A DNA stretch of 64,000 bases from Bacteroidetes bacterium 37-13 (GCA_001897535.1 MKTC01000019.1:26535-90534); one strand, 5' to 3'. Shown: positions 22,278 through 56,073, counted from the stretch's first letter. The notes: generated from the sequence alone by a model not told the origin. Translations and numbers: made by a program.

Positions 22278-23222
22278 ATGAAAAAACAACTACTTTCTTT
22301 CGCATCAGTTGCATTGGTAACAACACTATTTGCACAGCAAACGCCTATTCAAAACGGAGGCTTTGAAACATGGGCAAGCGGAGCTAAAGCACCAACAGGT
22401 TGGAGTACAGTAGAATCTGCTGCCGATGGAGCCGGTTTAGGTATGCTATTAACTGGAAAAAAATTCAGCAGCAAAGAAACAACTGCCGGAAATTATGTTG
22501 AAGGAGTACAAGCTGTAAGTGTTCAAAACGATGAAGTTTCTATTCCGGGAAGTGGAACACAAAAAATTCCTGGAACTTTAATTTATGGAACAATCAATGT
22601 TTCTTTAGCAACACAAAGTTTCGATCCGGTTGGAACTGCATTTGCTGCTGCTCCGGACTTAATAAAATTTGCATATAAATATGAGCCTCAAGGTGGTGAT
22701 AGTGCTTCGTTCTTTGTGCGCTTAACCAAATTCAATTCTACGGTAGATTCTTCAGTAAATCTTGGTGGTGTATTTGAAAGTTTAGACTCTACTGGAAGTG
22801 CAAATTGGGATAGTGTTTCTGCTCCAATTGATTATGATCCACAATTTGCAGGACAAACTGCTGACACCGTTTTAATTGGTTTTCTTTCAGGCGGTATGGC
22901 AAATACAAAAGGCTCAAAACTTTGGGTAGATAATGTTCGCTTTGTTTACAACACACAAAGCGGAATTGTTGAATTACCTGTATCAACACCTACAATTAAA
23001 GTGTATCCAAACCCAGTTGTAAGCACATTAAACTTAGGCTTAAATAATATTGAAGAAAATAGCGTTATTTCTATCTATAGCTTAGCAGGAAATCAAAGCA
23101 TTTCTAAGCAATTATTGAGCAATCAAGTAAGCGTAAACGAACTTGCTGCAGGTCGCTATTTATTTACCATCAGCCATGGAAACAAAATAACAGGAACAGG
23201 CAATTTTAACGTAATTAAATAA
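22278..23222 (+). CDS. Secreted hypothetical protein with T9SS type A C-terminal sorting domain
   Basis: Signal peptide present. C-terminus 'KVYPNPVVSTLNLGL...ISIYSLAGNQ...LAAGRYLFTISHGNKITGTGNFNVIK'. Confidence 0.7.
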   Translation: MKKQLLSFASVALVTTLFAQQTPIQNGGFETWASGAKAPTGWSTVESAADGAGLGMLLTGKKFSSKETTAGNYVEGVQAVSVQNDEVSIPGSGTQKIPGTLIYGTINVSLATQSFDPVGTAFAAAPDLIKFAYKYEPQGGDSASFFVRLTKFNSTVDSSVNLGGVFESLDSTGSANWDSVSAPIDYDPQFAGQTADTVLIGFLSGGMANTKGSKLWVDNVRFVYNTQSGIVELPVSTPTIKVYPNPVVSTLNLGLNNIEENSVISIYSLAGNQSISKQLLSNQVSVNELAAGRYLFTISHGNKITGTGNFNVIK

Positions 23223-40812: not shown

Positions 40813-40873
40813 TATTTTTTCATTTATGTTCCTTAAAAAAAAAACTTGTAGGAACCGCTAAAAACAAATAAAC

Positions 40874-41491
40874 ATGAAAGGAATTATTGGTAAAAAAGTT
40901 GGCATGACAAGTGTTTTCGATAATGGAAAGCACCTTGCCGTAACTGTGGTTCAAGCTGGACCATGTGTAATTACTCAAGTTAAAACTGAAGAAACTGATG
41001 GCTACAATGCTGTGCAGTTAGCTTTTGACGAGAAGAAAGAAAAAAATACTACAAAACCATTAGTAGGTCATTTTAAGAAAGCAAATACTACTCCTAAAAG
41101 AAAAGTAGTTGAAATCCGCAACTTTGATTTAGGAGGAAACTTAGGAGATGTTTTAAGTGCTGATGTATTTAGCGTAGGCGAAAAAATTAGCGTTGTTGGC
41201 ATCTCTAAAGGAAAAGGATTTCAAGGTGTTGTAAAGCGCCACGGATTTAGTGGTGTTGGTATGGGCTCTCACGGGCAACATGACCGCCAACGTGCTCCGG
41301 GTTCTGTGGGTGCATCATCTGATCCAAGCCGTGTTTTGAAAGGATTAAGAATGGCAGGAAGAATGGGAGGCGAGCGCGTGAAAGTTGCTAACCTTAAAGT
41401 AGTACAAGTATTGGCTGATAAGAACATTATCCTTGTAAAAGGCGCTGTTCCTGGACATAATGGCTCTTATGTAGTTATTGAAAGCCTTTAG
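40874..41491 (+). CDS. rplC: 50S ribosomal protein L3
   Basis: '[13 protein letters not shown]...[15 protein letters not shown]' and '[13 protein letters not shown]' are L3 signatures. Confidence 0.95.
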
Positions 41492-41513
41492 TATCAATAA
41501 AATAAATTTTAGA

Positions 41514-41547
41514 GCGGTTGTTTCTGTAAAGGAACAGCCGCTTTTTT
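41514..41547. terminator. Strong hairpin terminator immediately after rplC
   Basis: gcggttgtttc tgtaaa ggaacagccgc (11-bp stem, two G-U pairs) followed by T6. The A-run on the other side could serve the minus-strand gene fragment. Confidence 0.75.
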
Positions 41548-41632
41548 ATTTAATCTTGTTATAAATATTCTGTTTTAACCGCAAATAGACAGTAGGGCTT
41601 AGGTTCTCAAGAGTAAAGTTATGGTATAGTAC

Positions 41633-41812
41633 TTACTCTTTTAGTACTTTGCGAATGTATCTTTCTCCGCTTAATAACTGAATATGGAAAAAATATAAAC
41701 CTGGAGAGAAATTACTCATGTCAATTCTATAGCCTATTAAAGTGTTAATGCACTCTACTTTTTGTTGTTGCCCACGTATATCACAAATGTTAATTTGGCT
41801 TAATTTACTGTC
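41633..41812 (-). pseudogene. Orphan 3' fragment of a T9SS-secreted protein gene (type A C-terminal sorting domain only)
   Basis: The minus-strand frame reads 'DSKLSQINICDIRGQQQKVECINTLIGYRIDMSNFSPGLYFFHIQLLSGERYIRKVLKE*'. This matches the T9SS CTD pattern (I.I.D..G..V....ID.S....G.Y........K). There is an in-frame stop just upstream and no start codon. Confidence 0.6.
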
Positions 41813-41864
41813 TTAATTTTGGGGGACACTATAAATAATGATTTTGAATAGCATTTAATATTTT

Positions 41865-45034: not shown

Positions 45035-45682
45035 TTAGTTCTTTATCCATTTAATAGTGCTAAATTCTCCATTAAGTTTTTCAATTTGAATAAAGTATAG
45101 TCCCGCATTTAATATCGGCAATGCAATTGGGGTATTTTTGTTTTGTGTATTGAAAATTTCTTGCCCTGATAGATTAAAAATTCTTACTTGTTTAAGAAGA
45201 TTATTATCGGTGTTTGTTTTTAAATTATTATTCCAAACAAAGTAATTTGTTTCTGATAAACTATTGTCTTCGATATTACTTAGATTGTCTTTTACAAAAA
45301 TGAAATCGGCAACTTGATTCCCCGCAGTGCCGCTGAAAATAGGCCACACTACCACAACTTCAGGACCCGGTTTAAAATATTGCGGTTGCACATCAATGGA
45401 AATTGTACGTTGGATACTGCCAGCAGGAGGAATTTGAACTGTTCCCAAGTTTAGGCTATCGTAACTTGTAGAATTTGAGCCTTTAAACGCAATAAATAAT
45501 GTGCCGGAAAAGGTAATGGAATCTTGGTTGGTGATTTCTGTGGCATAAGAAATAGTGTCGCCATAGCTTACGCGAAATGGCGGTTGCGTTACCAATGGAT
45601 TAATTGATAAATCAATACTTGTTTGCGATTGGGCAACAAGCGAAGCGCTAAGAATGAATAGAATATGTAGGAACTTCCGCAT
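45035..45682 (-). CDS. Secreted hypothetical protein with T9SS type A C-terminal sorting domain
   Basis: Signal peptide 'ILSASLVAQSQ'. C-terminus 'VRIFNLSGQEIF...LNAGLYFIQIEKLNGEFSTIKWIKN'. Confidence 0.65.
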   Translation of the reverse strand: MRKFLHILFILSASLVAQSQTSIDLSINPLVTQPPFRVSYGDTISYATEITNQDSITFSGTLFIAFKGSNSTSYDSLNLGTVQIPPAGSIQRTISIDVQPQYFKPGPEVVVVWPIFSGTAGNQVADFIFVKDNLSNIEDNSLSETNYFVWNNNLKTNTDNNLLKQVRIFNLSGQEIFNTQNKNTPIALPILNAGLYFIQIEKLNGEFSTIKWIKN

Positions 45683-45784
45683 AATTTTTATTTCTATTTT
45701 CTAATAGGTGTTTTAAAGATACGTAACCGTTGCAAGAGAATTAAATTTATTTTATTTATTCTTACGTATTCAAAATTGAATTTT

Positions 45785-47230
45785 ATGGATGCGCTTCAAC
45801 AAATCATTCAGTCTTTAAACAAAGAAGAAGTTCGATATTTTAAAATATATCTTTCGCGAATAAGCGTGAAAGGAGAGCGAAAAGATGCGCAACTTTTTGA
45901 TTTGATACGAAGTGATGAAAAGAGTTTTAGTAATGATAAAGCTGCTGCAAAACTTCACTATGCAGAAATGAATGCGTTTTATCGTTTAAAGAACAGATTG
46001 CAAGAAGATATTTGCGATGCAATTGCATTACTTCATAGCAGTAAGGTTGAAGCTAACAGTCTTTTTAGAGAGATGATGTTGTTTGAAACTTTTCAGGCAA
46101 AAGGGAATTTGCAGCTTTCGGTTTATTTTTTAAAACGGGCTGAAAAATTAGCAACTATAACTGAAAATTTAGAAGTGTTGGATTGGATATATTCCAACTA
46201 CATAAAACTGTCAAGTGATTATCCTGAAATAAAACCCGAAATTTATATTGAGAAGCAAAAAGAAAATGCCCTTCACTTAAACCGATTGCGAACCATAGAC
46301 CAAGCTCTGGCTACGGTAATCTATCGCTTAAAAACAGCGCAAACATTTGGGCAAAAACCTACTGCGCTACTTCAAATGTTGAATAAATCTGTTAAGGAGT
46401 TTAGCAGAGATAATTTTTTAGATTCAAGCAAAATTTTTCAAACACGCTTGTACCGCGCGGTAAGCCAGCAGTTGCTGCAAACACACAATTATTTTCAGTT
46501 AGAAAAATATATGCTCAATACTATTTCTGTTTTTGAAACAAAGCAATGGTTTGATAAAAATAATCACGATGTAAAATTGCAAATGCGTGTTTATTTAACC
46601 AATGTGTTATTTAGAAACGAGAAGTATGAAGAGTCACTTGCAGAAGCCGATAAACTTGGGCGTGAAATTTTAGAATATGGTAAAACGAACTATTCAAAAT
46701 ATGTTTTTTACTACTATAATGCACTTTACATCAACTATGCCAAAACAGATTTGAATAAAGCCATCAAAGCGTTAGATGAATTAGATAAAGTGATGAAGGG
46801 AATGAAGAATAGCTATTATGAACAGTTTATTTTACTGAATAAATCAACCTTGTTTTTTGAATTGAAAAAGTACAATGATGCTATTCGGCAATTAGTTCGT
46901 TTATATATAAACGATAGCTATAAAAATGCTTCTCCAATATTTAAGCTTAAAATTTCTGTTGCTGAATTGATTATGCAATACGAAAGTGCAGATTTAAAAG
47001 CATTTAAAAATAGGCTTGAACAAGTAAGAAAAGATTTTGATTTAGTATTGAGAAAACGCGAAGGTGTTCGCGATAAAGATTTTCTTAAAATACTTGAATT
47101 ACTAAGTGAAGATAATCTTTTAGTTAATAAATATTACAACAGATTTATTAAGAAGTATAAAAATAGTAATGAAGGAAACGAGTTGTTGAATTATGAAAAG
47201 TGGCTTTATTTAAAATTTGAGGACAAGTAA
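45785..47230 (+). CDS. Hypothetical all-alpha (TPR-like) protein, possible regulator/scaffold
   Basis: About 480 aa with no signal peptide. It is helical and repeat-like throughout (heptad-rich, Y/L/K-rich). ATG at 45785 is preferred over the track TTG at 45776. It sits directly upstream of the adhesin pair on the same strand. Confidence 0.45.
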   Translation: MDALQQIIQSLNKEEVRYFKIYLSRISVKGERKDAQLFDLIRSDEKSFSNDKAAAKLHYAEMNAFYRLKNRLQEDICDAIALLHSSKVEANSLFREMMLFETFQAKGNLQLSVYFLKRAEKLATITENLEVLDWIYSNYIKLSSDYPEIKPEIYIEKQKENALHLNRLRTIDQALATVIYRLKTAQTFGQKPTALLQMLNKSVKEFSRDNFLDSSKIFQTRLYRAVSQQLLQTHNYFQLEKYMLNTISVFETKQWFDKNNHDVKLQMRVYLTNVLFRNEKYEESLAEADKLGREILEYGKTNYSKYVFYYYNALYINYAKTDLNKAIKALDELDKVMKGMKNSYYEQFILLNKSTLFFELKKYNDAIRQLVRLYINDSYKNASPIFKLKISVAELIMQYESADLKAFKNRLEQVRKDFDLVLRKREGVRDKDFLKILELLSEDNLLVNKYYNRFIKKYKNSNEGNELLNYEKWLYLKFEDK

Positions 47231-47341
47231 TTTTATATTATTTTGGATAGGTAAGAAAATAGTTTGTTTTTTTTAGAACTATTAAAATGAGATTTACTTT
47301 TGTTGTGCAAATAGTATTTCATTAAAACAAAAAATGATTGT

Positions 47342-50300
47342 ATGAAACCAAAAATTAAACTTATGCTGAGCATGCTGCTGGTAATGTTTTCAGCAATAGC
47401 ATTGCGAGCGCAAGTAGCTTGCGAAGCAAATTTCCAGTGGAGTGTAAATCCCAATGGGGTTTATTCCTTTTACGACTCTTCGTTTACGGCACAGGGATAT
47501 GTTATTTCCCAATACCAATGGAATTTTGGAAATGGATATACAAGTGTAGTGCAGAACCCAACTCAGCAATTTACCACAGCCGGAACATACAATGTTTGCT
47601 TGGTAATTACATCGCAGTTGCAAGGCTCTACAATTACATGCGTAGATACCGTATGTAAATCTATTGTGGTTGGTTGTTCTACTTATATTGGGGGAAGTTT
47701 TAACTTTACTGTTCAGCAGCAAACGGTTGCTTTTTCTTCTAATTATTCCAGCAATTATCCACCTTTAAGCTATACATGGGTATTTGGAGATGGAGCAAGT
47801 TCTTCACTTCCTAATCCAACACACACTTATGCTAACCAGGGAACATATCAAGTTTGCGTTACTGTTTCCGATTCTTTTGGCTGTAGCAAAACGGAGTGTA
47901 AAAATGTGATAATTGGCACTGCAACTTGTAATCTTCAAGCATATTTTACTTCCACTCAGCCTGGACCAAATACGTTAGTGGTAACTTCGCAAACTACAGG
48001 TGGCAATGTTGCTTCTAATATTCATGTTTGGAAATTGAATGGTGTTGTTTTAGGCACAACAACGGGCAATGGAAGTTCTCATACTTTTTCGCCACTACCT
48101 GCCAATACTCCGGATGGAAACCTTCAACTTTGTTTAAGAGTAGAAACTCCAAATGCACCTTGCCAAGATTCGTTTTGTAAAACAATAACTATTTGTAGAG
48201 CTAATGGTGAATTTGCTTACAATGTATTGGCTAATGATACTATTAAGTTTACTCCACCTGCTAATATGGCGAATATTTATTCGCACAAATGGTATGCAAA
48301 TGGCAATTTATTTTCTACTGATATTTCACCCAAAGTTAAGTTTTCAAATAGTTTTGTGGGAATGACGATTTGCCATGTTGTATCGAATGCACAAGTGCCA
48401 TCTTGTAAAGACTCTTTTTGTACTGTTTTGCAAGCGCAACCATGTAATGCAAATGCACAGTTTCAATTTCTTACAGATACTAATGGAATAACTAAATTTT
48501 ATCCTGTAACCAATGCAACAAATTGGAGTCATACTTGGATAATAAATAACGATACTGTTATTCAAAATTCTATTAGTCCGGCATTATATCTTTCACCGGA
48601 TACCTATAATGTATGCCATATTATTGCTCTAAACGGCAATCCAAATTGCATAGATACTATTTGCCAGCAAGTAATTGTGCGCAATGCACCTCCTTGCAAT
48701 TTGCATATAACAATAGCAAAAAGTGTAAATCCAAATATGCAAGTTTTGTTAGAAGCTTCTGCCATAAATATGACCGGAGCTTTTACTTACAATTGGAGTA
48801 ATGGATCTTCAACAAAGGTTATAAATGTTACCAATAACTATGGTGTTTATTGCGTTACCGTTACTGAAGCTGGTAGCGGATGTACTGCAACTGCTTGTTT
48901 TAACTATCAGCCTAATGCGCCTTTGGATACTATTTGTGGTATTACTTTTAACGATGCCAATGGTAATGGAGTTTTAGATTCAACTGAAAGCCCAATGAGC
49001 ATAAGGATATATATAAATGGGAATGGGCAACAATTATCGGTTGTAAGTGATTCTGTTACCGGAGAGTGGCATGCTTACTTACCTGCCGGAACTTACAATG
49101 TTTGTGCGTATGTAGCAAATTCAGGTACAACAGGCGGTTGGGTTGCTACACTTCCTGTTTCTCAAAACAATAACGGTTTATCGCCATCTGCTTGCTATAC
49201 AGTAAATATAGCGCCTAATCAAAATTTGTGTGGATTCAACTTTGGGTTTCAAAATACTAAAGTTACAATATGCGGATATGTATATATTGATGTAAACGCA
49301 AACGGTGTGAAAGATTCCACAGAGCATGGTATTCAAGGTCAAGCAGTGAAGGTTGGCAACTATACCGTATATACTAATGCCGATGGTTACTACAGAGTGA
49401 ATATTCCTGCTGGAACTTATACCGTAAACTACACACCAATTTCGCCATACACCGGATATACTGCACTACCTGCTAACTACACTATAGCAGCCACCACAAT
49501 TGGGCAGCCGTATTGTGGCAATAATTTTGGTATTCAAGTACCATCAGGGCAGTGCGATGTGGCTGTGGATTTAGCTCCGCTTAGTACGGTAACTCCGGGC
49601 TTTAGAGCAATATACACAATTAAAGTTTTCAATTTGAATGGCTACACAACAAGCGGCTTGCTAACCTTTAATTTTGAACCGGGTTTAACTTTCTATAGTG
49701 CAGCTCCTGCTCAAAGTAGTTTCGATAATAGTGCAGCAACCGTAACTTGGAATGTGAGCAATATTGCTCCGGGAACTTACAAATTATTTACTGTGCGTTT
49801 AAATACGCCACAGAATTTCCAACTTGGCACTCCGGTTTTCAGCTTTGCTGAGTTTACAACCAATGGAAATTGTACAGAAACCAACTTGAATAATAATATA
49901 GATACTACACATCAAACAGTTGTGGCATCTTATGACCCTAACGATAAGCATGTTTCGCCCGAAGGAAATATTGCTAATAACGGACAAGAATTGGCTTATA
50001 CTATTCGCTTCCAAAATACAGGCACCGCACCTGCCGTAAACGTGGTAATTTTAGATACGCTAAACGACAACTTAGATTGGAGTACTTTTGAATTTAAGAA
50101 TGCAAGCCATAGCTGCAATATTCAGCAAGAAGGCAATTTGGTGAGCTTTATATTTAGCAATATTATGTTGCCGGATAGTTTGCAGAACGAAGCAGAAAGT
50201 CATGGCTTTGTAAGCTACAAAATTAAAGCCCAACAAAACTTACCAAATGCTACCCGCATCACCAATAGTGCGGCTATCTATTTCGATTTTAATGAAGCTA

Positions 50301-50608
50301 TACACACCAATACTACACTCAACACGGTTGATTTTTCATTAAGCGTGAAGAATGTAAATGCCAAGCAACCAACTATCACCGTTTCGCCAAATCCATTCAA
50401 AACTTACACTAATATTTTGGTGAATGGTGCTGAGGAATCTCCAATAGAAATTGAGGTGCGCGATTTAGCCGGCAGAACTGTTGTAAAACAAATTTCAGAA
50501 AGTAACCTGATACAACTGCAAACGCTAAACTTGGCAAGCGGTATGTATGTTTATGAATTAAAACAGAACAATGGTGTAATTGGCACCGGAAAAATGATTG
50601 CTCAATAA
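47342..50608 (+). CDS. Large T9SS-secreted adhesin-like protein (PKD and PKD-like modules, two SdrD-B-like domains, DUF11-like repeat, conserved 'YDPNDK' module, type A CTD), paralogue 1
   Basis: Signal peptide present. PKD motifs 'WNFGNGYTS..NPT..F..AGTYNVCLVI' and 'WVFGDGASSSLPNPTHTYANQGTYQVCVTV'. SdrD-B-like 'ICGYVYIDVNANGVKDSTE...TNADGYYRVNIPAGTY'. CTD 'ITVSPNPFKTYTNILV...IEVRDLAGRTV...LASGMYVYELKQNNGVIGTGKMIAQ'. Confidence 0.8.
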   Translation: MKPKIKLMLSMLLVMFSAIALRAQVACEANFQWSVNPNGVYSFYDSSFTAQGYVISQYQWNFGNGYTSVVQNPTQQFTTAGTYNVCLVITSQLQGSTITCVDTVCKSIVVGCSTYIGGSFNFTVQQQTVAFSSNYSSNYPPLSYTWVFGDGASSSLPNPTHTYANQGTYQVCVTVSDSFGCSKTECKNVIIGTATCNLQAYFTSTQPGPNTLVVTSQTTGGNVASNIHVWKLNGVVLGTTTGNGSSHTFSPLPANTPDGNLQLCLRVETPNAPCQDSFCKTITICRANGEFAYNVLANDTIKFTPPANMANIYSHKWYANGNLFSTDISPKVKFSNSFVGMTICHVVSNAQVPSCKDSFCTVLQAQPCNANAQFQFLTDTNGITKFYPVTNATNWSHTWIINNDTVIQNSISPALYLSPDTYNVCHIIALNGNPNCIDTICQQVIVRNAPPCNLHITIAKSVNPNMQVLLEASAINMTGAFTYNWSNGSSTKVINVTNNYGVYCVTVTEAGSGCTATACFNYQPNAPLDTICGITFNDANGNGVLDSTESPMSIRIYINGNGQQLSVVSDSVTGEWHAYLPAGTYNVCAYVANSGTTGGWVATLPVSQNNNGLSPSACYTVNIAPNQNLCGFNFGFQNTKVTICGYVYIDVNANGVKDSTEHGIQGQAVKVGNYTVYTNADGYYRVNIPAGTYTVNYTPISPYTGYTALPANYTIAATTIGQPYCGNNFGIQVPSGQCDVAVDLAPLSTVTPGFRAIYTIKVFNLNGYTTSGLLTFNFEPGLTFYSAAPAQSSFDNSAATVTWNVSNIAPGTYKLFTVRLNTPQNFQLGTPVFSFAEFTTNGNCTETNLNNNIDTTHQTVVASYDPNDKHVSPEGNIANNGQELAYTIRFQNTGTAPAVNVVILDTLNDNLDWSTFEFKNASHSCNIQQEGNLVSFIFSNIMLPDSLQNEAESHGFVSYKIKAQQNLPNATRITNSAAIYFDFNEAIHTNTTLNTVDFSLSVKNVNAKQPTITVSPNPFKTYTNILVNGAEESPIEIEVRDLAGRTVVKQISESNLIQLQTLNLASGMYVYELKQNNGVIGTGKMIAQ

Positions 50609-50672
50609 TTTATTTGAGTTTATTATTTAAGCCACATTAGAACTTAAAATCTGATGTGGCTTTTTTGTTTAA
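49868..50672 (+). repeat. High-identity paralogous segment, copy A (C-terminal module, CTD, 3' UTR and terminator)
   Basis: It aligns base for base, without indels, with 53385-54189. The lengths from 'NCTETN' to the stop are identical (246 codons). Confidence 0.9.
50631..50666 (+). terminator. Rho-independent terminator of adhesin paralogue 1
   Basis: gccacat ... atgtggc stem followed by T6. Confidence 0.7.
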
Positions 50673-50870
50673 GTATAGATTATGCAAGAGAGATTGTAAA
50701 AACAAGAAAAAATTGTAAGAAATTTCAACTTTGTTTCAAAAAATAAAGTATATATTTACGACAAGAAGAATCTTTATAAAATTGACGATATAGCTAAGTG
50801 TAAGCGTACTTTTTAATCCCTTGCCTATGTAATTCTCTTCTAATATTTTCATCAGTTTAAAACCTACTTT

Positions 50871-53800
50871 ATGAATATTTATTTAAGATTTATCTCCCTA
50901 TTATTTACTACGTTTATTGGCGTATTTGTTACTAAGGCACAAATAGGCTGTCAAGCAAATTTTTATACTACTCTTGGCAATAGCGGTATCTGCCATTTTA
51001 CCGACTCTTCACAAATTGATTCAAGTTATGTAATAACAGACTGGCAATGGGATTTTGGTAATGGTACTGCAAGTTCAACTCAAAACCCCACCATTGTTTA
51101 TTCCACACCGGGCATTTACAATGTTTGTTTAAAAATCACTTCTCAAATTACTGGTACACCTAATGTTTGCATTGATTCAATTTGCAAATCGGTGATTTAC
51201 ACTTGTCCTAATTCTATTTGGGGTTCATTTTCTTTTAATGCAGAGCAGCAAACAGTTTATTTTAATTCAGGCTATGGCAGCAATTCTACTCCACTTACTT
51301 ATGAATGGAATTTTGGAGATAGCTCACAGGTTTCTTATCAAGTTAATCCCAAACATATTTACGCAGCAGATGGCAGCTACCAAGTGTGTGCTACCATCAA
51401 CTCAGCCAATGGCTGTAGCCGTACAGAGTGCAAAACTGTTTTAGTGAGCAGCACAAATTGTAATCTTGCTGCTGCATTTTCGTATTCTCAACCTAAAAAT
51501 AATATTTTACAACTTGTGCCTCAAACTACCGGAGGCGACACATCGGGAAATATTTATGTTTGGAAAATTGGTAACATTCCTATTGGAACTACCCATAATA
51601 ACAGCGATACTGTAATCATTACTGTTCCCGATACTATTCCTGATGGCAATTCCCAGCTATGCTTAAATGTGTTTGTTCCTAATTCAAGCTGCCAAGATTC
51701 TATTTGCCAGCCAATAGCAATATGCAAAGCCAATGGAGAATTTTCATATATAGCAATGGCGAGTGATACTATTCAATTTCATTCTGTCTATCCATATTCC
51801 GGCTACATGCACCAATGGTATGCTAACGGGGTTTTATTTTCCACCGATGTAAATCCTAAATTTAAGTTTCAAAGTAATTATGCAGGTATAAATGTTTGCC
51901 ACATTTTAACTGACTCAACTAACATTGCTTGTACCGATACATTTTGCAATACGCTACAAACGCAAACATGTATGGCAAATGCCGGATTTCAATTCACTTT
52001 AGATACCGCAGGTAATAAAGGCGTACTTCATTTTTATTCTTTAGATACGCTTGCCGACAGAAACCACTTTTGGAACATCGGGAACTATTCCAATACTTCA
52101 GTAAACCCAACTATTACTCTTCCGGCCGGAACATATCAAGTTTGTCATCGAATAGCACAAAAAAGTAATCCGGCTTGCCAAGATACTTTTTGCCAGCAGA
52201 TAACAATATCGCTTCCTCCATGTAATTTAACTGTATCTATTACACAATATACCGATACAAGTAACAGAGAGTGGTTAGAAGCTGTCGCATCGGGCAATAG
52301 TAGTTATTCTTACGTTTGGAGTAATAATGCTATCAATAAGAAGATAAACATTACAGGGCAGTATGGTATTTTTTGCGTAACCGTTACAGATGCTGCAACT
52401 AATTGCACCGCCACAAACTGCTACAATGCAGGAAGTATTCCACTCACCGATACTATTTGCGGAATAACATTTAATGACCTTAACGGAAATGGTGTTAAAG
52501 ATAGCAGTGAGCCATTTATTGCTGCCAGTATAAACATTATCGGCTCCAATAATTTTCAAACAATAGTATTGAGCGATTCAATAACAGGGGCGTGGCAAGC
52601 ATATCTTCCATCTGGTACTTATGAAATTAGCAGCACAGTGCCGCGTGGTATAGATGAATGGATTACAACAATTCCGATAAGTACTAATAACCATGGCGGC
52701 TCTCACAATTCTCAATATATTATTACCCTAAACGGTGGTCAAAACATTTGTGGCTTAACCTTCGGATTGCAACAATATCACTATCTTGTGTGTGGTTATA
52801 TTTATGCAGATTTGAACGGCAGTGGCAAACGAGATGGTAATGAACCGGGCATATCGGGACAAACAGTTACTATGGACAACCAAACTGCTCACACCGATGC
52901 ATTTGGTTATTACGTTTTAAATATTAGAAATATATCAACATTAAACTGCATTCCCAAGACGCCATACACCGGATTTATACCCACGCCTCTCAATTATTCA
53001 CCTTCGGCTAATAATATCTCAGGACGTGTTTTCTTAGGATATGATTTTGGAATTTATTTAGATACCGGAGCATGTGATGTTGCTGTTGATTTATTGCCTT
53101 TACAAGAAGTAGTTCCCGGTTTTGGCACATGGTATGCTGTTAAAGTATCGAACATAGGCAATACTATTGCCAGCGGCTTGCTTACTCTAAGTTTAGACAC
53201 TAACTTAACTTTTGTATATAGCAATCAGCAGGGTGTTTACAATAGCAGCTCCCATACAGTATCATGGAACCTAAACAATATATTACCGGTAGGAAACAAA
53301 GTGGTTGGGAGTATGCTAATGACACCCACTTCATTGCCAATAGGAAGCCCTATTTTTACTCGTGCTGAATTTGTTACCACAAGTAATTGCACAGAAACAA
53401 ACTTGAATAATAATATAGATACAACACATCAAACAGTTGTAGCATCTTACGATCCGAACGATAAGCATGTTTCTCCGGAAGGCAATATTGCGAATAACGG
53501 CCAAGAATTGGCTTATACTATTCGTTTCCAAAATACAGGCACCGCACCCGCTGTGAATGTAGTGGTTTTAGATACTTTAGATAATAATTTAGATTGGAGT
53601 ACTTTTGAATTTAAGAATGCAAGCCATAGCTGCAATATTCAGCAAGAAGGCAATTTAGTGAGTTTTAGATTTAGCAATATTATGTTGCCGGATAGCCTAC
53701 ATAACGAAGCAGAAAGTCATGGTTTTGTGAGCTATAAAATTAAAGCCCAACAAAATTTGCCAAATAATACGCCTATTCACAACCGTGCAGCTATTTACTT

Positions 53801-54125
53801 TGATTACAATGAAGCAATACTCACAAACACTACTGTGAATACGATAGATTTTGCCTTAGCTGTTAAGAACATAAACAGAAAACAGCCAACAATAACTATT
53901 TCGCCAAATCCATTCAAAACTTATACTAATATTTTGGTGAATGGTGCTGAGGCATCTCCAATAGAAATTGAGGTGCGCGACTTAACCGGCAGAACTGTTG
54001 TGAAGCAAATTTCAGAAAGTAATCTGATACAACTGCAAACGCTAAATTTGGCAAGTGGTATGTATGTTTATGAAGTAAAACAGAACAATGGTGTAATAGG
54101 CACCGGAAAAATAATTGCCCAATAA
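50871..54125 (+). CDS. Large T9SS-secreted adhesin-like protein, paralogue 2 (same architecture as 47342-50608)
   Basis: Same order of PKD ('WDFGNGTASSTQNPTIVYSTPGIYNVCLKI', 'WNFGDSSQVSYQVNPKHIYAADGSYQVCATI'), SdrD-B-like and DUF11-like modules. The C-terminal 246 aa are near-identical, including the T9SS CTD. Confidence 0.8.
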   Translation: MNIYLRFISLLFTTFIGVFVTKAQIGCQANFYTTLGNSGICHFTDSSQIDSSYVITDWQWDFGNGTASSTQNPTIVYSTPGIYNVCLKITSQITGTPNVCIDSICKSVIYTCPNSIWGSFSFNAEQQTVYFNSGYGSNSTPLTYEWNFGDSSQVSYQVNPKHIYAADGSYQVCATINSANGCSRTECKTVLVSSTNCNLAAAFSYSQPKNNILQLVPQTTGGDTSGNIYVWKIGNIPIGTTHNNSDTVIITVPDTIPDGNSQLCLNVFVPNSSCQDSICQPIAICKANGEFSYIAMASDTIQFHSVYPYSGYMHQWYANGVLFSTDVNPKFKFQSNYAGINVCHILTDSTNIACTDTFCNTLQTQTCMANAGFQFTLDTAGNKGVLHFYSLDTLADRNHFWNIGNYSNTSVNPTITLPAGTYQVCHRIAQKSNPACQDTFCQQITISLPPCNLTVSITQYTDTSNREWLEAVASGNSSYSYVWSNNAINKKINITGQYGIFCVTVTDAATNCTATNCYNAGSIPLTDTICGITFNDLNGNGVKDSSEPFIAASINIIGSNNFQTIVLSDSITGAWQAYLPSGTYEISSTVPRGIDEWITTIPISTNNHGGSHNSQYIITLNGGQNICGLTFGLQQYHYLVCGYIYADLNGSGKRDGNEPGISGQTVTMDNQTAHTDAFGYYVLNIRNISTLNCIPKTPYTGFIPTPLNYSPSANNISGRVFLGYDFGIYLDTGACDVAVDLLPLQEVVPGFGTWYAVKVSNIGNTIASGLLTLSLDTNLTFVYSNQQGVYNSSSHTVSWNLNNILPVGNKVVGSMLMTPTSLPIGSPIFTRAEFVTTSNCTETNLNNNIDTTHQTVVASYDPNDKHVSPEGNIANNGQELAYTIRFQNTGTAPAVNVVVLDTLDNNLDWSTFEFKNASHSCNIQQEGNLVSFRFSNIMLPDSLHNEAESHGFVSYKIKAQQNLPNNTPIHNRAAIYFDYNEAILTNTTVNTIDFALAVKNINRKQPTITISPNPFKTYTNILVNGAEASPIEIEVRDLTGRTVVKQISESNLIQLQTLNLASGMYVYEVKQNNGVIGTGKIIAQ

Positions 54126-54189
54126 TTTATCTGAGTTTATTATTTAAGCCGCATTAGAACTTAAAATCTAATGTGGCTTTTTTGTTTAA
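53385..54189 (+). repeat. High-identity paralogous segment, copy B
   Basis: See copy A. My manual alignment gives 22 amino-acid differences in 246 positions, and 3 differences in the 67 nt running from the stop codon through the 3' UTR and terminator. Confidence 0.9.
54148..54183 (+). terminator. Rho-independent terminator of adhesin paralogue 2
   Basis: gccgcat ... atgtggc stem (one G-U pair) followed by T6. Confidence 0.7.
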
Positions 54190-54294
54190 AGATGCTTCGT
54201 AGTAATGTTTCATTAACACAAAAACAATAAAAAAACTTAGGTATTCGTTGCAACTATTTATGTTCTGCAATAATCATTTATTTTGCGCGGCTTT

Positions 54295-56073
54295 ATGAAA
54301 AGTAACCTATTCTGCTTTTTGATTTTTTATGCACAATTTCTATTGGCGCAAACTATTCCTGCTCCAAAACTGCAATGTGTAAATAATGATGCGCTTAACT
54401 CAAACGTAGATTTGCAGTGGAGCTTGCCCGGCAACCCGTGTGGAGGCACTTTTAATGGATATAAAATTTATGCTGCAAGCAGTTTTAACGGCACTTACAA
54501 TTTGGTTACAACCATTGTGAACGAAAACCAAACATCTTACGTTGATTTAGGACGACTTTCGCAAGGTGGAACTTGGTTTTATTATATGGAAGCCGATTAC
54601 ACTTGCCCGGGTTCAACAGTTTTACAATCAGATACTATACAAAATGCACCTCCGGCTACACCGGAAATTATAAGTGTAGATGTAACGCCTAATAATCAAG
54701 TAATTGTAAATTGGCAAAGAAGTATTTCCCCTCAAACAAAAGAATATGTATTGTATTACGCATTGCCAAATGGAAATGCACAGCCGTTTGATACAGTTCA
54801 GAATCGTTCTACTATCACAGCCTTAGATGTAATTGCAGACCCAACTACAGCTTCAATTGCTTACACTTTAGCCGCAGCCGATAGTTGCAATAAAATAAGT
54901 TCGTTTAATACAAAACCGCAGCGCACTATATTGCTTACTTATGCCACATCGCAATGCGAAAGAAGCATTAACCTAAAGTGGACGCGCTACGAAAATTGGC
55001 AAATGGGCGTAAAGGAATATCGCATTTTAGTGAGTAAAAACATGCAGCCATTTGAAGTAGTTGGCGTTTCTGATACTTCTGCACAAGTATTTTCATTTTC
55101 TGGCTTTAACGATGGCGACTCTTTGTGTATTAGCATTATTGCTGTGAGCGCTGCCGATACAAATATTATTTCGCATTCAAACTATGCTTGTTTTGTTCCT
55201 TCTATCGTGCAAAGTCCTGATTATCTTTACCCAATAAATGCAACGGTGAATTTAGATAATACCGTTTCTGTTTCGTGGTTGGTTGATGATAAGGCAGAGC
55301 TTTCTTTATATCAGGTTGATATGGGAAATAATGGTTCACAATTTAATTTGTTGAAACAGTACTCTGTGGCTCAACCGCTGCCGCAATTTGAAACATTTAT
55401 TGATTCAGCTTCGGACCCACAAAATTCTGCATTGTACTATCGTATTAAAGCAATAGATAGCTGCAATAATAAATTTCCTTCTACTGATTCGGTTGAAACT
55501 GTTTTTTTAAGTGGTGAACTTTTAGACTATTATGTTGTTGCACTTTATTGGAATGATTTTGCCGCAAAATTCAGCAATATTCTCTACTGGAATTTGTATC
55601 GAAATATGGGAACAGGAGCTTTTCAACTTATTAAAACTTTCCCTGCCGGCACAAACCAAACTGCCGATTCGCTCCAAGCATTTTTATCGGAAAAAGGGCA
55701 ATTCTGTTACCGCCTTGAAGCTGTTTATTCTATTGATATTTCGGGTGTTTATCAAGACACACTAAGCAGTTTTTCTAATGTGTTTTGTATAGACCATCGC
55801 CCAATTATGTATGTGCCAAATGCCTTTGCGCCAAACGGTGTAAACAATATTTTTAAGCCTACAATTATTTTTGGTTCACCACAAAATTATAGCATGACAA
55901 TTTGGAATCGTTGGGGGGCAAAAATATTTGAAAGTAATGCACCTGACATCGGTTGGGACGGCACTCAAAATGGAAAAGACCAGCAAATGGGTGCTTATGC
56001 TTACCTTATTAAATTTACAGCATCCGATGGTGTAAACATCGAAAGAAAAGGTATGGTGTTACTAGTAAAATAA
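54295..56073 (+). CDS. Fn3/Ig-like repeat protein with T9SS type B C-terminal sorting domain (gliding-motility-associated C-terminal domain)
   Basis: Signal peptide 'FLIFYAQFLLAQ' from ATG 54295 (the track TTG at 54283 is less likely). C-terminus 'VPNAFAPNGVNNIFKP...MTIWNRWGAKIFES...GWDGTQNGKDQQMGAYAYLIKF...RKGMVLLVK' is the type B CTD consensus. Confidence 0.8.
   Translation: MKSNLFCFLIFYAQFLLAQTIPAPKLQCVNNDALNSNVDLQWSLPGNPCGGTFNGYKIYAASSFNGTYNLVTTIVNENQTSYVDLGRLSQGGTWFYYMEADYTCPGSTVLQSDTIQNAPPATPEIISVDVTPNNQVIVNWQRSISPQTKEYVLYYALPNGNAQPFDTVQNRSTITALDVIADPTTASIAYTLAAADSCNKISSFNTKPQRTILLTYATSQCERSINLKWTRYENWQMGVKEYRILVSKNMQPFEVVGVSDTSAQVFSFSGFNDGDSLCISIIAVSAADTNIISHSNYACFVPSIVQSPDYLYPINATVNLDNTVSVSWLVDDKAELSLYQVDMGNNGSQFNLLKQYSVAQPLPQFETFIDSASDPQNSALYYRIKAIDSCNNKFPSTDSVETVFLSGELLDYYVVALYWNDFAAKFSNILYWNLYRNMGTGAFQLIKTFPAGTNQTADSLQAFLSEKGQFCYRLEAVYSIDISGVYQDTLSSFSNVFCIDHRPIMYVPNAFAPNGVNNIFKPTIIFGSPQNYSMTIWNRWGAKIFESNAPDIGWDGTQNGKDQQMGAYAYLIKFTASDGVNIERKGMVLLVK

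What the first reader, a model, noticed from the sequence alone, without database searches (positions are those of the whole stretch)
47342..54189. Tandem ~1085-aa T9SS adhesin paralogues with sharply mosaic conservation
Two adjacent same-strand genes share an identical domain order and nearly identical length (1088 vs 1084 aa). The first ~840 aa are clearly diverged; compare 'QWNFGNGYTSVVQNPTQQFTTAGTYNVCLVITSQ' with 'QWDFGNGTASSTQNPTIVYSTPGIYNVCLKITSQ'. The last 246 aa differ at only 22 positions by my manual alignment. That region includes a 60-aa run ('NCTETNLNNNIDTTHQTVVASYDPNDKHVSPEGNIANNGQELAYTIRFQNTGTAPAVNVV') that is identical in protein. Its DNA nevertheless differs at synonymous sites (gtggcatcttatgaccctaac vs gtagcatcttacgatccgaac). 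This points to strong purifying selection on the anchoring/secretion module. The exposed N-terminal PKD and SdrD-B part is free to diversify, as expected for variable adhesins or receptors.
Basis: seen in the sequence. Interest (0 to 1): 0.55.

Follow-up and report, generated by a model that had tools for sequence, protein, structure and literature searches.

The report
Adhesin-like gene pair with recombining tails
Two neighbouring surface-protein genes of an uncultured Chitinophagales bacterium have very different bodies but nearly identical 3' ends, mainly because the bacterium keeps copying short stretches of DNA between the two ends (gene conversion), a well-known process seen here in a new place.

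Summary
Genes A (47342-50608) and B (50871-54125) encode 1088- and 1084-aa T9SS cargo proteins with the same domain order. Amino-acid identity is 45% over the first ~842 aa and 91% over the last 246 aa, with a sharp breakpoint at nt 49868.

- Four-fold synonymous sites differ at 73% in the body (saturated) but 35% in the tail.
- Similarity runs 64 nt past the stop codon through the terminator at 95% identity.
- Body trees put A with its orthologues (100%). Tail trees put A with B.
- The tail is a three-block mosaic with conflicting topologies (heterogeneity p=1e-7).
- Between true orthologues the tail is only slightly more conserved than the body.
- Strains of the same species carry short tracts where paralogue-specific sites have switched to the other copy's state, for example 50407 and 50436.

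All seven related lineages sampled, including those about 95% and 83% identical to A, have a single gene at this locus.

The unnamed module is Pfam DUF7619, a predicted CnaA-like intramolecular isopeptide domain. Its Lys869/Asp905/Asn975 triad is conserved. A type A T9SS sorting domain follows it.

Verdict: concerted evolution of 3' ends by gene conversion, layered on purifying selection. This is a new member of a known kind and of modest interest.

The parts
47342..50608 (+). Gene A, 1088 aa (identical to OJV27587.1 / P0346). It is a T9SS type A cargo protein with, in order, a signal-peptide-like N-terminus, PKD domains, SdrD_B, a CLIPPER/DUF11-like domain, DUF7619 and a CTD. It is the conserved orthologue-type copy.
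   Evidence: ORF. Domains. Orthologues in conserved synteny. A canonical TAnnTTTG -7 box lies at -47.
50871..54125 (+). Gene B, 1084 aa (P0121). It has the same domain order as A, but its body is the most divergent in the whole family. It is found only in this species.
   Evidence: No closer relative than the A family (55%) exists among 5.8 billion proteins or in species-representative genomes.
47342..49867 (+). Body of A (aa 1-842). It is orthologous to the single-copy genes of relatives and 45% aa identical to B's body, with saturated synonymous sites.
50871..53384 (+). Body of B (aa 1-838). It sits on a long branch (dN branch length about 0.36 against 0.14 for A), but all structural cysteines and Ca-binding-like motifs are retained.
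49868..50672 (+). Repeat copy 1 (805 nt). It covers the last strand of the CLIPPER-like domain, DUF7619, the linker, the CTD, the stop codon and the terminator of A. It is 88% identical to copy 2, which lies 3517 nt downstream.
   Evidence: 99 differing sites; exact shared runs up to 68 nt.
53385..54189 (+). Repeat copy 2 (805 nt), the equivalent tail and terminator of B.
49871..50239 (+). Block 1 (most of DUF7619; B equivalent 53388-53756). A-B nt identity is 0.90 and synonymous divergence 0.25. It groups A+B at 78% and (A,B,o83) at 99%. A is orthologous here to the 95% sister lineage.
50240..50381 (+). Block 2 (last DUF7619 strands plus the interdomain linker; B equivalent 53757-53898). This is an unconverted island. 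A-B nt identity is 0.68-0.69 and synonymous divergence 0.60 (saturated). B groups with the 83% orthologue at 95% bootstrap. There are no exact shared runs of 25 nt or more.
50382..50672 (+). Block 3 (CTD, stop codon and intrinsic terminator; B equivalent 53899-54189). This is the most recently homogenised tract. A-B nt identity is 0.94-0.95 and synonymous divergence 0.13. A+B bootstrap is 100%. It differs from the CTD and terminator of the 95% sister lineage.
49934..50326 (+). DUF7619 domain of A (aa 865-995), a predicted CnaA-like intramolecular isopeptide domain. The inferred triad is K869, D905 and N975. The B equivalent is 53451-53843.
   Evidence: Pfam E=3e-47. K and D are invariant and N is at least 90% conserved in 32 diverse homologues. 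The AF2 model has pLDDT 87. Foldseek hits go to isopeptide pilins and CnaA domains. Family definition from PMC12617251.
50384..50605 (+). T9SS type A C-terminal sorting domain of A (aa 1015-1088). The B equivalent is 53895-54122.
   Evidence: TIGR04183 scores 43.6 and 44.7 bits against a cutoff of 23. PF18962 matches. There are sequence hits to solved CTDs. The model shows a beta-sandwich.
50629..50672 (+). Intrinsic terminator of A (13-bp stem, 8-nt loop, T-run), lying inside the homogenised tract.
   Evidence: alignment.
54146..54189 (+). Intrinsic terminator of B. It is identical to A's except for two stem transitions that keep pairing through G.T wobbles. DNA homology with A ends here, and orthology of the downstream DNA with single-copy relatives begins.
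50673..50870 (+). A-B spacer (198 nt), unique to this species. It has no detectable homology to the upstream regions of A or the orthologues and no exact TAnnTTTG box. It presumably holds B's promoter.
50407..50436 (+). Polymorphic conversion tract. In strain GCA_023957695.1 these two consecutive A/B-distinguishing sites in A carry B's bases, while the flanking distinguishing sites 50381 and 50464 are unchanged. The tract is therefore 30-82 bp. A B allele (P0358) carries A's residue at the site homologous to 50436.

Best explanation
A and B are two separately terminated genes for T9SS-exported, cell-surface, fibrillar-adhesin-like proteins. Each has PKD, SdrD_B and CLIPPER-like stalk domains, then a DUF7619 predicted isopeptide domain, then a type A sorting domain. 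Their bodies diverged long ago. Their last 805 nt form direct repeats 3517 nt apart, running from the final strand of the CLIPPER-like domain through DUF7619, the linker, the CTD and the stop codon to the end of the terminator.

These repeats are kept similar by repeated, short-patch, non-reciprocal homologous recombination (gene conversion) between the two copies, in both directions. Conversion has acted at different times on two tracts. Block 1 is older, at about 10% nt divergence. Block 3, which includes the CTD and terminator, is at about 5%, roughly the age of the split from the closest single-copy relative. An intervening 140-nt island (block 2) has escaped conversion. It is too diverged (68% identity, no exact run of 25 nt or more) to support heteroduplex formation.

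Purifying selection on DUF7619 and the CTD acts on top of this and keeps non-synonymous change very low, but it is not what creates the step.

What is shown: the discordant phylogenies, reduced synonymous and non-coding divergence, mosaic blocks, strain-level tracts and domain identities. What is inferred: the recombination pathway (RecA-type), surface localisation, adhesive function, and the existence of the isopeptide bond.
For: Step in identity at nt 49868.

Four-fold sites within identical amino acids: A-B is 0.73 in the body and 0.35 in the tail (p=2e-8). A versus the 83% orthologue is 0.43 in the body and 0.53 in the tail, so tail synonymous sites carry no special constraint.

Homology continues 64 nt beyond the stop codon at 95% identity and ends at the terminator. 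After that, B's flank is 95% identical to the flank of the single-copy relative, and A's flank is unrelated.

Trees: in the body, (A,o83) has 100% support, excluding B. In the tail, (A,B,o83) has 99% and (A,B) 88%. Block-wise, block 1 gives A+B 78%, block 2 gives B+o83 95%, and block 3 gives A+B 100%. Site-pattern heterogeneity has chi2=38, p=1e-7.

Synonymous codon differences for A-B: block 1 0.25, block 2 0.60, block 3 0.13. A versus the 95% sister: body 0.15, block 3 0.34. A-B block 3 is lower than A-o95 block 3 (p=0.006).

Control: orthologue pairs differ little between body and tail (A-o70 69% versus 77% aa; dN ratio about 1.6, against 10.7 for A-B).

Ongoing exchange: strain L102 differs from the window at 12 sites in 7.1 kb. 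Two of these are the consecutive paralogue-specific sites 50407 and 50436, both switched to B's state (P about 1e-3). The B allele P0358 carries A's residue at the homologous site.

Substrate: there are exact shared runs of 68, 28, 27, 27 and 25 nt in blocks 1 and 3, and none of 25 nt or more in block 2.

Domains.
Against: Block 1 still carries about 10% nt divergence, so homogenisation is slow or episodic rather than continuous. With only one genome carrying both copies, a few old recombination events cannot be formally separated from a steady process.

The strain-level evidence rests on few sites: one clean two-site tract, one reciprocal single site, and one ambiguous non-contiguous pair (50239 and 50249, with 50242 between them unchanged).

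A GENECONV-style longest-run test is significant over the whole gene (1 of 10000 permutations) but not within the tail alone (p=0.21).

All data come from metagenome assemblies. Mis-phasing of reads between two 88%-identical repeats could mimic micro-tracts.

The closest single-copy relatives are known only from short contigs.
Confidence: 0.8

Rival explanations
1. Differential purifying selection only. The two genes duplicated once, the secretion and anchoring tail is strongly constrained, and the exposed body is free to drift. No recombination is involved.
For: Tail dN/dS is about 0.07. DUF7619 and CTD motifs are conserved family-wide. Block 2 shows what selection alone gives: 74% aa identity with saturated synonymous sites.
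Against: This view predicts equal synonymous divergence along the gene and the same tree for body and tail. Observed four-fold divergence is 0.73 versus 0.35 (p=2e-8), and the trees are discordant at 100% and 99%. It does not explain the 95%-identical non-coding terminator or the three conflicting blocks. It does not explain why orthologues show only a small body/tail contrast, or the strain-level paralogue-state switches.
Confidence: 0.04
2. Chimeric origin by one or a few discrete events rather than recurrent conversion. In this view B was gained in the window's lineage. A divergent family member from an unsampled donor integrated by a single crossover within the conserved tail (Campbell-type) or just after A's terminator. 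This created the 805-nt direct repeats in one step. Later similarity reflects that event plus one or two replacements.
For: B is absent from the syntenic locus of every relative sampled, including the 95% lineage (two samples) and the 83% lineage. In those two, the gene is followed directly by the same CHU_C gene. B's body predates the A/o83 split, so an old duplication needs at least 2-3 independent losses. The spacer has no homology to A's promoter region. The structure 'repeat - unique DNA - repeat' is what a single-crossover integration leaves. From block 2 to the terminator, the tail of A is not orthologous to that of the 95% lineage (synonymous 0.55 and 0.34 against 0.15 in the body; p=3e-8 and 4e-4). 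This shows that tails are replaced between lineages. L101 carries a third CTD type on an identical body.
Against: No donor or B-type body exists in 5.8 billion proteins or in 185,579 species-representative genomes. A single event cannot give three blocks with three topologies and three ages. It also does not account for the tracts still segregating among strains. This scenario explains B's origin and is compatible with, not exclusive of, later gene conversion.
Confidence: 0.13
3. Assembly artefact. The tandem copy, or its near-identical tail, results from mis-assembly or collapse of strain variants in a metagenome.
For: The source is a MAG. Several assemblies break inside A's tail (L009-L013 start at 50072-50409), which shows that the repeat troubles assemblers.
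Against: The bodies are only 52-55% identical at nt level, so they cannot be strain variants. The full A-spacer-B-CHU_C arrangement is recovered in at least 3 independent long contigs, and the A-tail/spacer/B junction in at least 5 more from different projects and assemblers. The two tails differ at 99 fixed sites that are reproduced identically across assemblies.
Confidence: 0.02

Closest known systems
Concerted evolution of 3' segments of Helicobacter pylori outer-membrane adhesin paralogues (babA/babB, homA/homB, sabA/sabB; Pride & Blaser 2002, as summarised in PMC3960876)
   Same: These are paralogous surface-protein genes whose 5' and middle parts track orthologues, while the 3' segments are most similar within a genome. 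The pattern is attributed to RecA-dependent intragenomic gene conversion, and chimeric alleles segregate among strains.
   Different: Here the genes are adjacent and tandem rather than at distant loci. The organism is an environmental Chitinophagales bacterium, not a pathogen. The homogenised part is a T9SS sorting domain, an isopeptide-type stalk domain and the terminator, not a beta-barrel anchor. There is no evidence that conversion moves the variable (binding) region or switches expression.
Porphyromonas gingivalis rgpA / kgp / hagA (T9SS cargo with shared adhesin and C-terminal modules; PMC5266723)
   Same: These are T9SS type A cargo genes in one genome that share identical repeat sequences in their C-terminal regions. 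They show modular domain rearrangement and allelic exchange, and the repeats break short-read assemblies.
   Different: The gingipain repeats are haemagglutinin/cleaved-adhesin domains (CAD, DUF2436), the genes are dispersed, and the catalytic N-terminal parts are proteases. The present pair shares DUF7619, the CTD and the terminator, and has no protease domain.
DUF7619 (PF24595) / CLIPPER (DUF11) predicted intramolecular isopeptide domains of fibrillar adhesin stalks (PMC12617251)
   Same: The conserved module matches PF24595 end to end (E about 1e-47). It keeps the Lys/Asp/Asn triad at the exemplar's spacing, and its model has a CnaA-like beta-sandwich resembling isopeptide pilins.
   Different: The bond itself is not demonstrated for this family or this protein. 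Here the domain occurs once, immediately before the T9SS CTD, rather than as a tandem stalk repeat.
Programmed antigenic-variation cassette systems (Neisseria pilE/pilS, Borrelia vlsE; from general knowledge)
   Same: Gene conversion between a conserved-flank family of surface-protein sequences within one genome.
   Different: Those systems use promoterless partial cassettes and move the variable segment unidirectionally into an expression site. Here both copies are complete genes with their own terminators. Exchange is seen only in the conserved tail and goes in both directions. This pair is not a member of that class.

Membership tests
T9SS type A cargo (Por_Secre_tail, TIGR04183 / PF18962) | A C-terminal domain of about 70-80 aa matches the curated model above its cutoff | tested here: met
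   TIGR04183 scores 43.6 bits (A) and 44.7 bits (B) against a cutoff of 23. PF18962 scores 41.4 and 36.9 against 27.
T9SS type A cargo (Por_Secre_tail, TIGR04183 / PF18962) | The CTD folds as a compact beta-sandwich related to solved CTDs | tested here: met
   In the AF2 model, tail residues 168-246 are all-beta with pLDDT about 90. A profile search hits solved CTD chains 8glk_D, 8glj_D and 8qb1_A (mirolase) at E from 1e-9 to 1e-5.
T9SS type A cargo (Por_Secre_tail, TIGR04183 / PF18962) | An N-terminal Sec signal peptide is present | tested here: inconclusive
   Both proteins start with a basic and then hydrophobic stretch ending in ..A(L/T)(R/K)AQ. No signal-peptide predictor was available.
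T9SS type A cargo (Por_Secre_tail, TIGR04183 / PF18962) | The host encodes a T9SS, and the protein is exported with CTD cleavage by PorU | not testable with these tools
   There is only indirect support. Three other genes with type A or type B sorting domains lie in the window. T9SS machinery genes were not looked for, and secretion needs an experiment.
DUF7619 (PF24595), predicted CnaA-like intramolecular isopeptide domain | A full-length match to the Pfam model above the gathering score | tested here: met
   160.3 and 160.7 bits against 27, covering profile positions 1-133 of 133.
DUF7619 (PF24595), predicted CnaA-like intramolecular isopeptide domain | A Lys / Asp / Asn triad at the exemplar's spacing (Lys657, Asp695, Asn764 in L7WFS8) | tested here: met
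   K869, D905 (+36) and N975 (+106) in A. K and D are invariant and N is at least 90% conserved in 32 homologues at 37-53% identity. Exemplar positions come from PMC12617251. The residue assignment is by spacing and motif, not by structural superposition.
DUF7619 (PF24595), predicted CnaA-like intramolecular isopeptide domain | A CnaA-like beta-sandwich fold | tested here: met
   The model has pLDDT 87. Top Foldseek PDB hits are BcpA, EbpB, LrpA, RrgB, SpaA, SspB, Cna, ACE19 and CNM, with E from 1e-8 to 1e-5.
DUF7619 (PF24595), predicted CnaA-like intramolecular isopeptide domain | A covalent Lys-Asn isopeptide bond actually forms | not testable with these tools
   This needs mass spectrometry or crystallography. 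The family itself is only predicted.
Concerted evolution by gene conversion between paralogues | In the tract, paralogues within a genome are more similar than orthologues between genomes; outside it the reverse holds | tested here: met
   For the CTD, A-B is 0.94 against 0.82 for A versus the 95% lineage. For the body, A-B is 0.49-0.52 against 0.94-0.96.
Concerted evolution by gene conversion between paralogues | The similarity extends to synonymous and non-coding sites | tested here: met
   Four-fold divergence is 0.35 against 0.73. Block 3 synonymous divergence is 0.13. The terminator and 3' flank are 95% identical.
Concerted evolution by gene conversion between paralogues | Discrete tracts with breakpoints and conflicting topologies | tested here: met
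   The breakpoint lies at 49868. There are three blocks with different supported topologies and heterogeneity p=1e-7.
Concerted evolution by gene conversion between paralogues | Conversion tracts are polymorphic within the population | tested here: met
   In L102, sites 50407 and 50436 carry B's state, bounded by unchanged sites 50381 and 50464. P0358 carries A1028E, which is A's state. The number of sites is small and assembly phasing has not been verified.
Fibrillar adhesin | A stalk of repeated Ig-like domains plus a surface-anchoring or sorting signal | tested here: met
   PKD_4 (two or more), SdrD_B, CLIPPER-like, DUF7619 and CTD.
Fibrillar adhesin | A recognisable adhesive (ligand-binding) domain, or demonstrated binding | tested here: not met
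   There is no Pfam or NCBIfam hit to a known adhesive domain. The MSCRAMM SdrC/SdrD hits fall far below their cutoffs (28 bits against 2500) and cover only B-repeat-like regions. 'Adhesin' is therefore an inference.
Programmed antigenic-variation cassette system | Silent, promoterless partial cassettes donate variable segments unidirectionally to an expression locus | tested here: not met
   B is a complete ORF with a start codon, a signal-like N-terminus and its own terminator. Exchange is seen only in the conserved tail and in both directions.

The most novel reading that the evidence does not exclude
The 805-nt tail-plus-terminator may be more than a passively homogenised repeat. It may act as a portable recombination handle for T9SS cargo genes in this Chitinophagales clade. 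Three things would follow from that. Whole adhesin bodies could be inserted or deleted next to a resident gene: B is present only in this species, while single-copy relatives keep the same flanks. Different CTD-plus-terminator cassettes could be swapped between lineages: three CTD types sit on nearly identical bodies (window A, L099/L100 and L101). And the diverged linker island could partition the tail into independently exchanging units.
Probability: 0.2. Interest if true: 0.5.

Novelty: new member of a known kind. Interest (0 to 1): 0.3.

Why it matters
It is a clean, quantified example of concerted evolution in an environmental Bacteroidota genome. It shows that a 'mosaic conservation' pattern read from protein sequence can mislead. 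Most of the contrast comes from DNA exchange between the copies and from unusually fast divergence of one body, not from differential constraint.

For T9SS biology, it shows that the sorting domain, the adjacent DUF7619 isopeptide-type domain and even the terminator travel together as a recombination unit. It also shows that near-identity of CTDs within a genome need not reflect a functional requirement: another CTD in the same window is only 35% identical.

Practically, such repeats break or mis-phase metagenome assemblies. Paralogue-aware analysis is needed before inferring selection on cargo genes.

It does not open a new question or reveal a new kind of system.

Tried and rejected
- **Rfam scan.** A scan of the whole window found nothing, so no RNA element explains the conserved 3' region.
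- **GENECONV-style test within the tail.** The longest-run permutation test restricted to the tail was not significant (p=0.21). The run statistic is weak when most sites match. Block heterogeneity and topology tests were used instead.
- **Origin of B's body.** Word-indexed searches with full-length B found no closer relative than the A family. A scan of species-representative genomes also found none. The tail-only search returned only fragments at 53% identity or less and did not even list A or B, so it was uninformative about a donor.
- **Origin of the spacer.** Homology between the A-B spacer and the upstream regions of A or the orthologues was not detectable (z of 1.2 or less). Whether the original duplication or insertion included a promoter therefore cannot be decided.
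- **Recent duplication with hyper-accelerated divergence of B's body.** Rejected. Four-fold sites within identical amino acids are saturated (0.73) while A versus the 95% lineage is 0.19.
- **o83's single copy as a tail-tail deletion product.** This fitted the block 2 and downstream patterns. Adding the 95% lineage showed that tail ancestry is more reticulate than that simple model, so B's origin is left open.
- **L007 SNP pair 50239/50249 as a tract.** Downgraded, because the distinguishing site 50242 between them is unchanged.
- **L101 as proof of inter-lineage CTD swapping.** Not accepted as proof. The contig ends 10 nt after the gene, and an assembly chimera cannot be excluded.
- **Isopeptide geometry.** It could not be measured because model coordinates are not exposed.

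Full report
**1. Observation**

The window carries two same-strand ORFs: A at 47342..50608 (1088 aa) and B at 50871..54125 (1084 aa). Pfam and NCBIfam give both the same order of domains: PKD/PKD_4, SdrD_B, DUF11/CLIPPER, DUF7619, and a type A T9SS sorting domain.

A global alignment gives 44.8% aa and 55% nt identity over the first 847 columns. Over the last 247 columns it gives 90.7% aa and 86.8% nt identity. There are 22 aa differences in the last 246 residues. The quoted 60-aa run is identical in both proteins and carries 19 silent nucleotide differences. A maximum chi-square scan places the change-point at nt 49868.

**2. Not an assembly artefact**

The window is identical to ENA and JGI assemblies from other projects. 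It is 99.8% identical to NCBI MAG GCA_019638435.1 and 99.8% identical to GCA_023957695.1. The full A-spacer-B-CHU_C arrangement, or the junction from A's tail through the spacer into B, recurs in all of them. The bodies are only about 52-55% identical in DNA, so they cannot be collapsed strain variants. Several assemblies do break inside A's tail, as expected for a real repeat.

**3. What the proteins are**

The source is an uncultured Chitinophagales bacterium.

The family was created in 2025 as a predicted CnaA-like intramolecular isopeptide-bond domain, with exemplar triad Lys657/Asp695/Asn764 (PMC12617251). By spacing and motif, the triad in A is K869 (DPNDK), D905 (LDTL) and N975. In 32 homologues at 37-53% identity, K and D are invariant and N is at least 90% conserved.

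An AlphaFold2 model of the tail has pLDDT 87. It shows a beta-sandwich at tail residues about 22-155, a low-confidence linker, and a second beta-sandwich at about 168-246. Foldseek matches are dominated by isopeptide-bonded Gram-positive pilins and CnaA-type domains: BcpA, EbpB, RrgB, SpaA, SspB, Cna, ACE19 and CNM. The last ~80 residues match solved T9SS CTDs by sequence.

DUF7619 followed by a CTD is a common C-terminal module in Bacteroidota. No known adhesive domain was found, so 'adhesin' is an inference from the stalk-like architecture.

**4. Why purifying selection alone fails**

- **(a) Synonymous sites.** At four-fold sites inside identical amino acids, A and B differ at 73% in the body, which is saturated. 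In the tail they differ at 35% (Fisher p=2e-8). The tail is not synonymously constrained in general. A versus its orthologues gives 0.53-0.68 in the tail, as high as or higher than in the body.
- **(b) Non-coding DNA.** DNA similarity continues 64 nt beyond the stop codons, through a 13-bp-stem intrinsic terminator, at 95% identity. It stops at 50672/54189.
- **(c) Trees.** Bootstrapped trees conflict. In the body, A groups with its 83% orthologue at 100% and B sits on a long branch outside. In the tail, (A,B,orthologue) has 99% support and (A,B) 88%.
- **(d) Orthologue control.** Between true orthologues the tail is only slightly better conserved than the body. A-o70 is 77% versus 69% aa, with a dN ratio of about 1.6. 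For A-B the dN ratio is 10.7.

**5. The tail is itself a mosaic**

I compared A and B with the single-copy 83% orthologue (o83, L001) and later with a 95% sister lineage (o95, L099/L100).

| Block | A coordinates | Content | A-B nt identity | A-B synonymous divergence | Supported grouping |
|---|---|---|---|---|---|
| 1 | 49871-50239 | most of DUF7619 | 0.90 | 0.25 | A+B 78%; (A,B,o83) 99% |
| 2 | 50240-50381 | end of DUF7619 plus linker | 0.68-0.69 | 0.60 (saturated) | B+o83 95% |
| 3 | 50382-50672 | CTD, stop codon, terminator | 0.94-0.95 | 0.13 | A+B 100% |

Site-pattern heterogeneity among the blocks has p=1e-7.

Blocks 1 and 3 contain exact shared runs of 68, 28, 27, 27 and 25 nt. Block 2 has none of 25 nt or more. 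This fits a model in which the diverged island blocks heteroduplex extension and splits the tail into two independently converting tracts.

The 5' breakpoint lies in the last strand of the preceding CLIPPER-like domain, not at a domain border. That is what a DNA-level process would give, rather than a domain-level one.

**6. Relatives and timing**

All seven related lineages examined have a single gene in conserved synteny, with the same 477-487-aa gene upstream. In the 95% and 83% lineages the gene is followed directly by the same CHU_C gene that follows B here. B's nearest relatives anywhere are the A family, at about 55%.

Window versus o95 gives the following:
- **Body:** synonymous divergence 0.15; flanking non-coding DNA 93% identical.
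- **A's block 1:** orthologous (0.18).
- **A's block 2:** 0.55, far beyond the orthologous level (p=3e-8).
- **A's block 3:** 0.34, also beyond it (p=4e-4).
- **A's terminator:** 0.66 nt identity.
- **DNA just after B's terminator:** 95% identical to o95's downstream DNA.

A-B block 3 synonymous divergence (0.13) is lower than A-o95 block 3 (0.34, p=0.006). A and B therefore share a CTD-plus-terminator type that the closest single-copy relative lacks. It was homogenised about when, or after, the lineages split.

**7. Ongoing exchange among strains**

Strain GCA_023957695.1 differs from the window at only 12 positions in 7.1 kb. Two of them (50407 and 50436) are the first two consecutive A/B-distinguishing sites of block 3. 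Both are switched to B's base, and the neighbouring distinguishing sites 50381 and 50464 are untouched. The tract is therefore 30-82 bp, and the chance probability is about 1e-3.

A B allele from another MAG (P0358) carries A's residue at the homologous site (A1028E). Exchange therefore goes both ways. A third candidate in GCA_019638435.1 (50239 and 50249) is not contiguous and is treated as ambiguous.

**8. Origin of B (unresolved)**

B's body branched before the A/o83 split, and probably within the (A,o83,o70) clade (94% support). Its non-synonymous branch is about 2.6 times longer than A's, yet all structural cysteines are retained.

There are two possibilities.
- **Old tandem duplication.** The copy was then lost at least two or three times. 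Deletion between direct repeats is easy.
- **Gain in this lineage.** The copy came from an unsampled donor by a crossover in the conserved tail.

Parsimony and the unrelated spacer favour gain. The absence of any donor keeps the question open. A contig with an identical o95 body but a CTD 95% identical to the 64% orthologue's (L101) hints at inter-lineage tail swapping. It could also be an assembly chimera.

**9. Comparison with what is known, and verdict**

The pattern matches concerted evolution of the 3' segments of H. pylori babA/babB and homA/homB (PMC3960876). It also resembles the shared C-terminal modules of the P. gingivalis T9SS cargo genes rgpA/kgp/hagA (PMC5266723). It is not a programmed antigenic-variation cassette system. 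Both genes are complete, and only the conserved tail is exchanged.

The best explanation is gene conversion acting on top of purifying selection. This is a new member of a known kind and of modest interest.

Noticed in passing
window 45776-47230 (+): This 484-aa ORF has no Pfam or NCBIfam hit. A 477-487-aa gene sits immediately upstream of the adhesin-like gene in every orthologous locus examined (L001, L002, L004, L014, L016, L018, L099). It is a conserved partner of unknown function.
   Followed up: partly
window 47231-47341 and 50673-50870; upstream regions in L001, L002, L004, L014: A canonical Bacteroidota -7 promoter box (TAnnTTTG) lies 43-47 nt before the start codon of A and of all four orthologues checked. 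The A-B spacer has no exact box and no homology to those regions, so B's expression signal is different or weak.
   Followed up: partly
window 51688 (L102 about 9228): In MAG GCA_023957695.1 a single G is deleted in B. The context CAAGCTGCC is not a homopolymer. The deletion splits B into ORFs of 281 and 789 aa (MCO5281572.1 and MCO5281573.1). This is either real pseudogenisation of B in that strain or a sequencing error.
   Followed up: partly
L101 1764-5033 (ENA ERZ27298990 k141_250275): This gene is identical to the 95% sister lineage up to about window-equivalent 50420. It then switches to a CTD 95% identical to that of the 64% orthologue (L004/L006). It is either a natural inter-lineage CTD recombinant or an assembly chimera. 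The contig ends 10 nt after the stop codon.
   Followed up: partly
window about 40871-41834: Upstream of about 41834, the window and L008 lose colinearity with the otherwise 99.8%-identical MAG contig L007. L007 carries a Peptidase_S8 T9SS gene there, while L008 has ribosomal protein L3. This is a strain-level rearrangement or a contig mis-join.
   Followed up: no
window about 61884-64000 (+): This is the start of a very large ORF, annotated as 3039 aa in L007/L008, with no Pfam hit on record. Local GC rises to 0.42-0.45 against about 0.37 elsewhere.
   Followed up: no
window 45035-45682 (-), 54283-56073 (+), 22989-23201: Other T9SS cargo genes cluster around the pair: a 215-aa protein with a type A CTD, a 596-aa protein with a type B (CHU_C) sorting domain, and a further CTD only 35% identical to the A/B CTD. 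Near-identical CTDs are therefore not required for secretion in this genome.
   Followed up: partly
window 50629-50662 and 54146-54179: The two terminator hairpins differ by two transitions. Each change produces a G.T wobble at a different stem position, so pairing is preserved in both copies.
   Followed up: no
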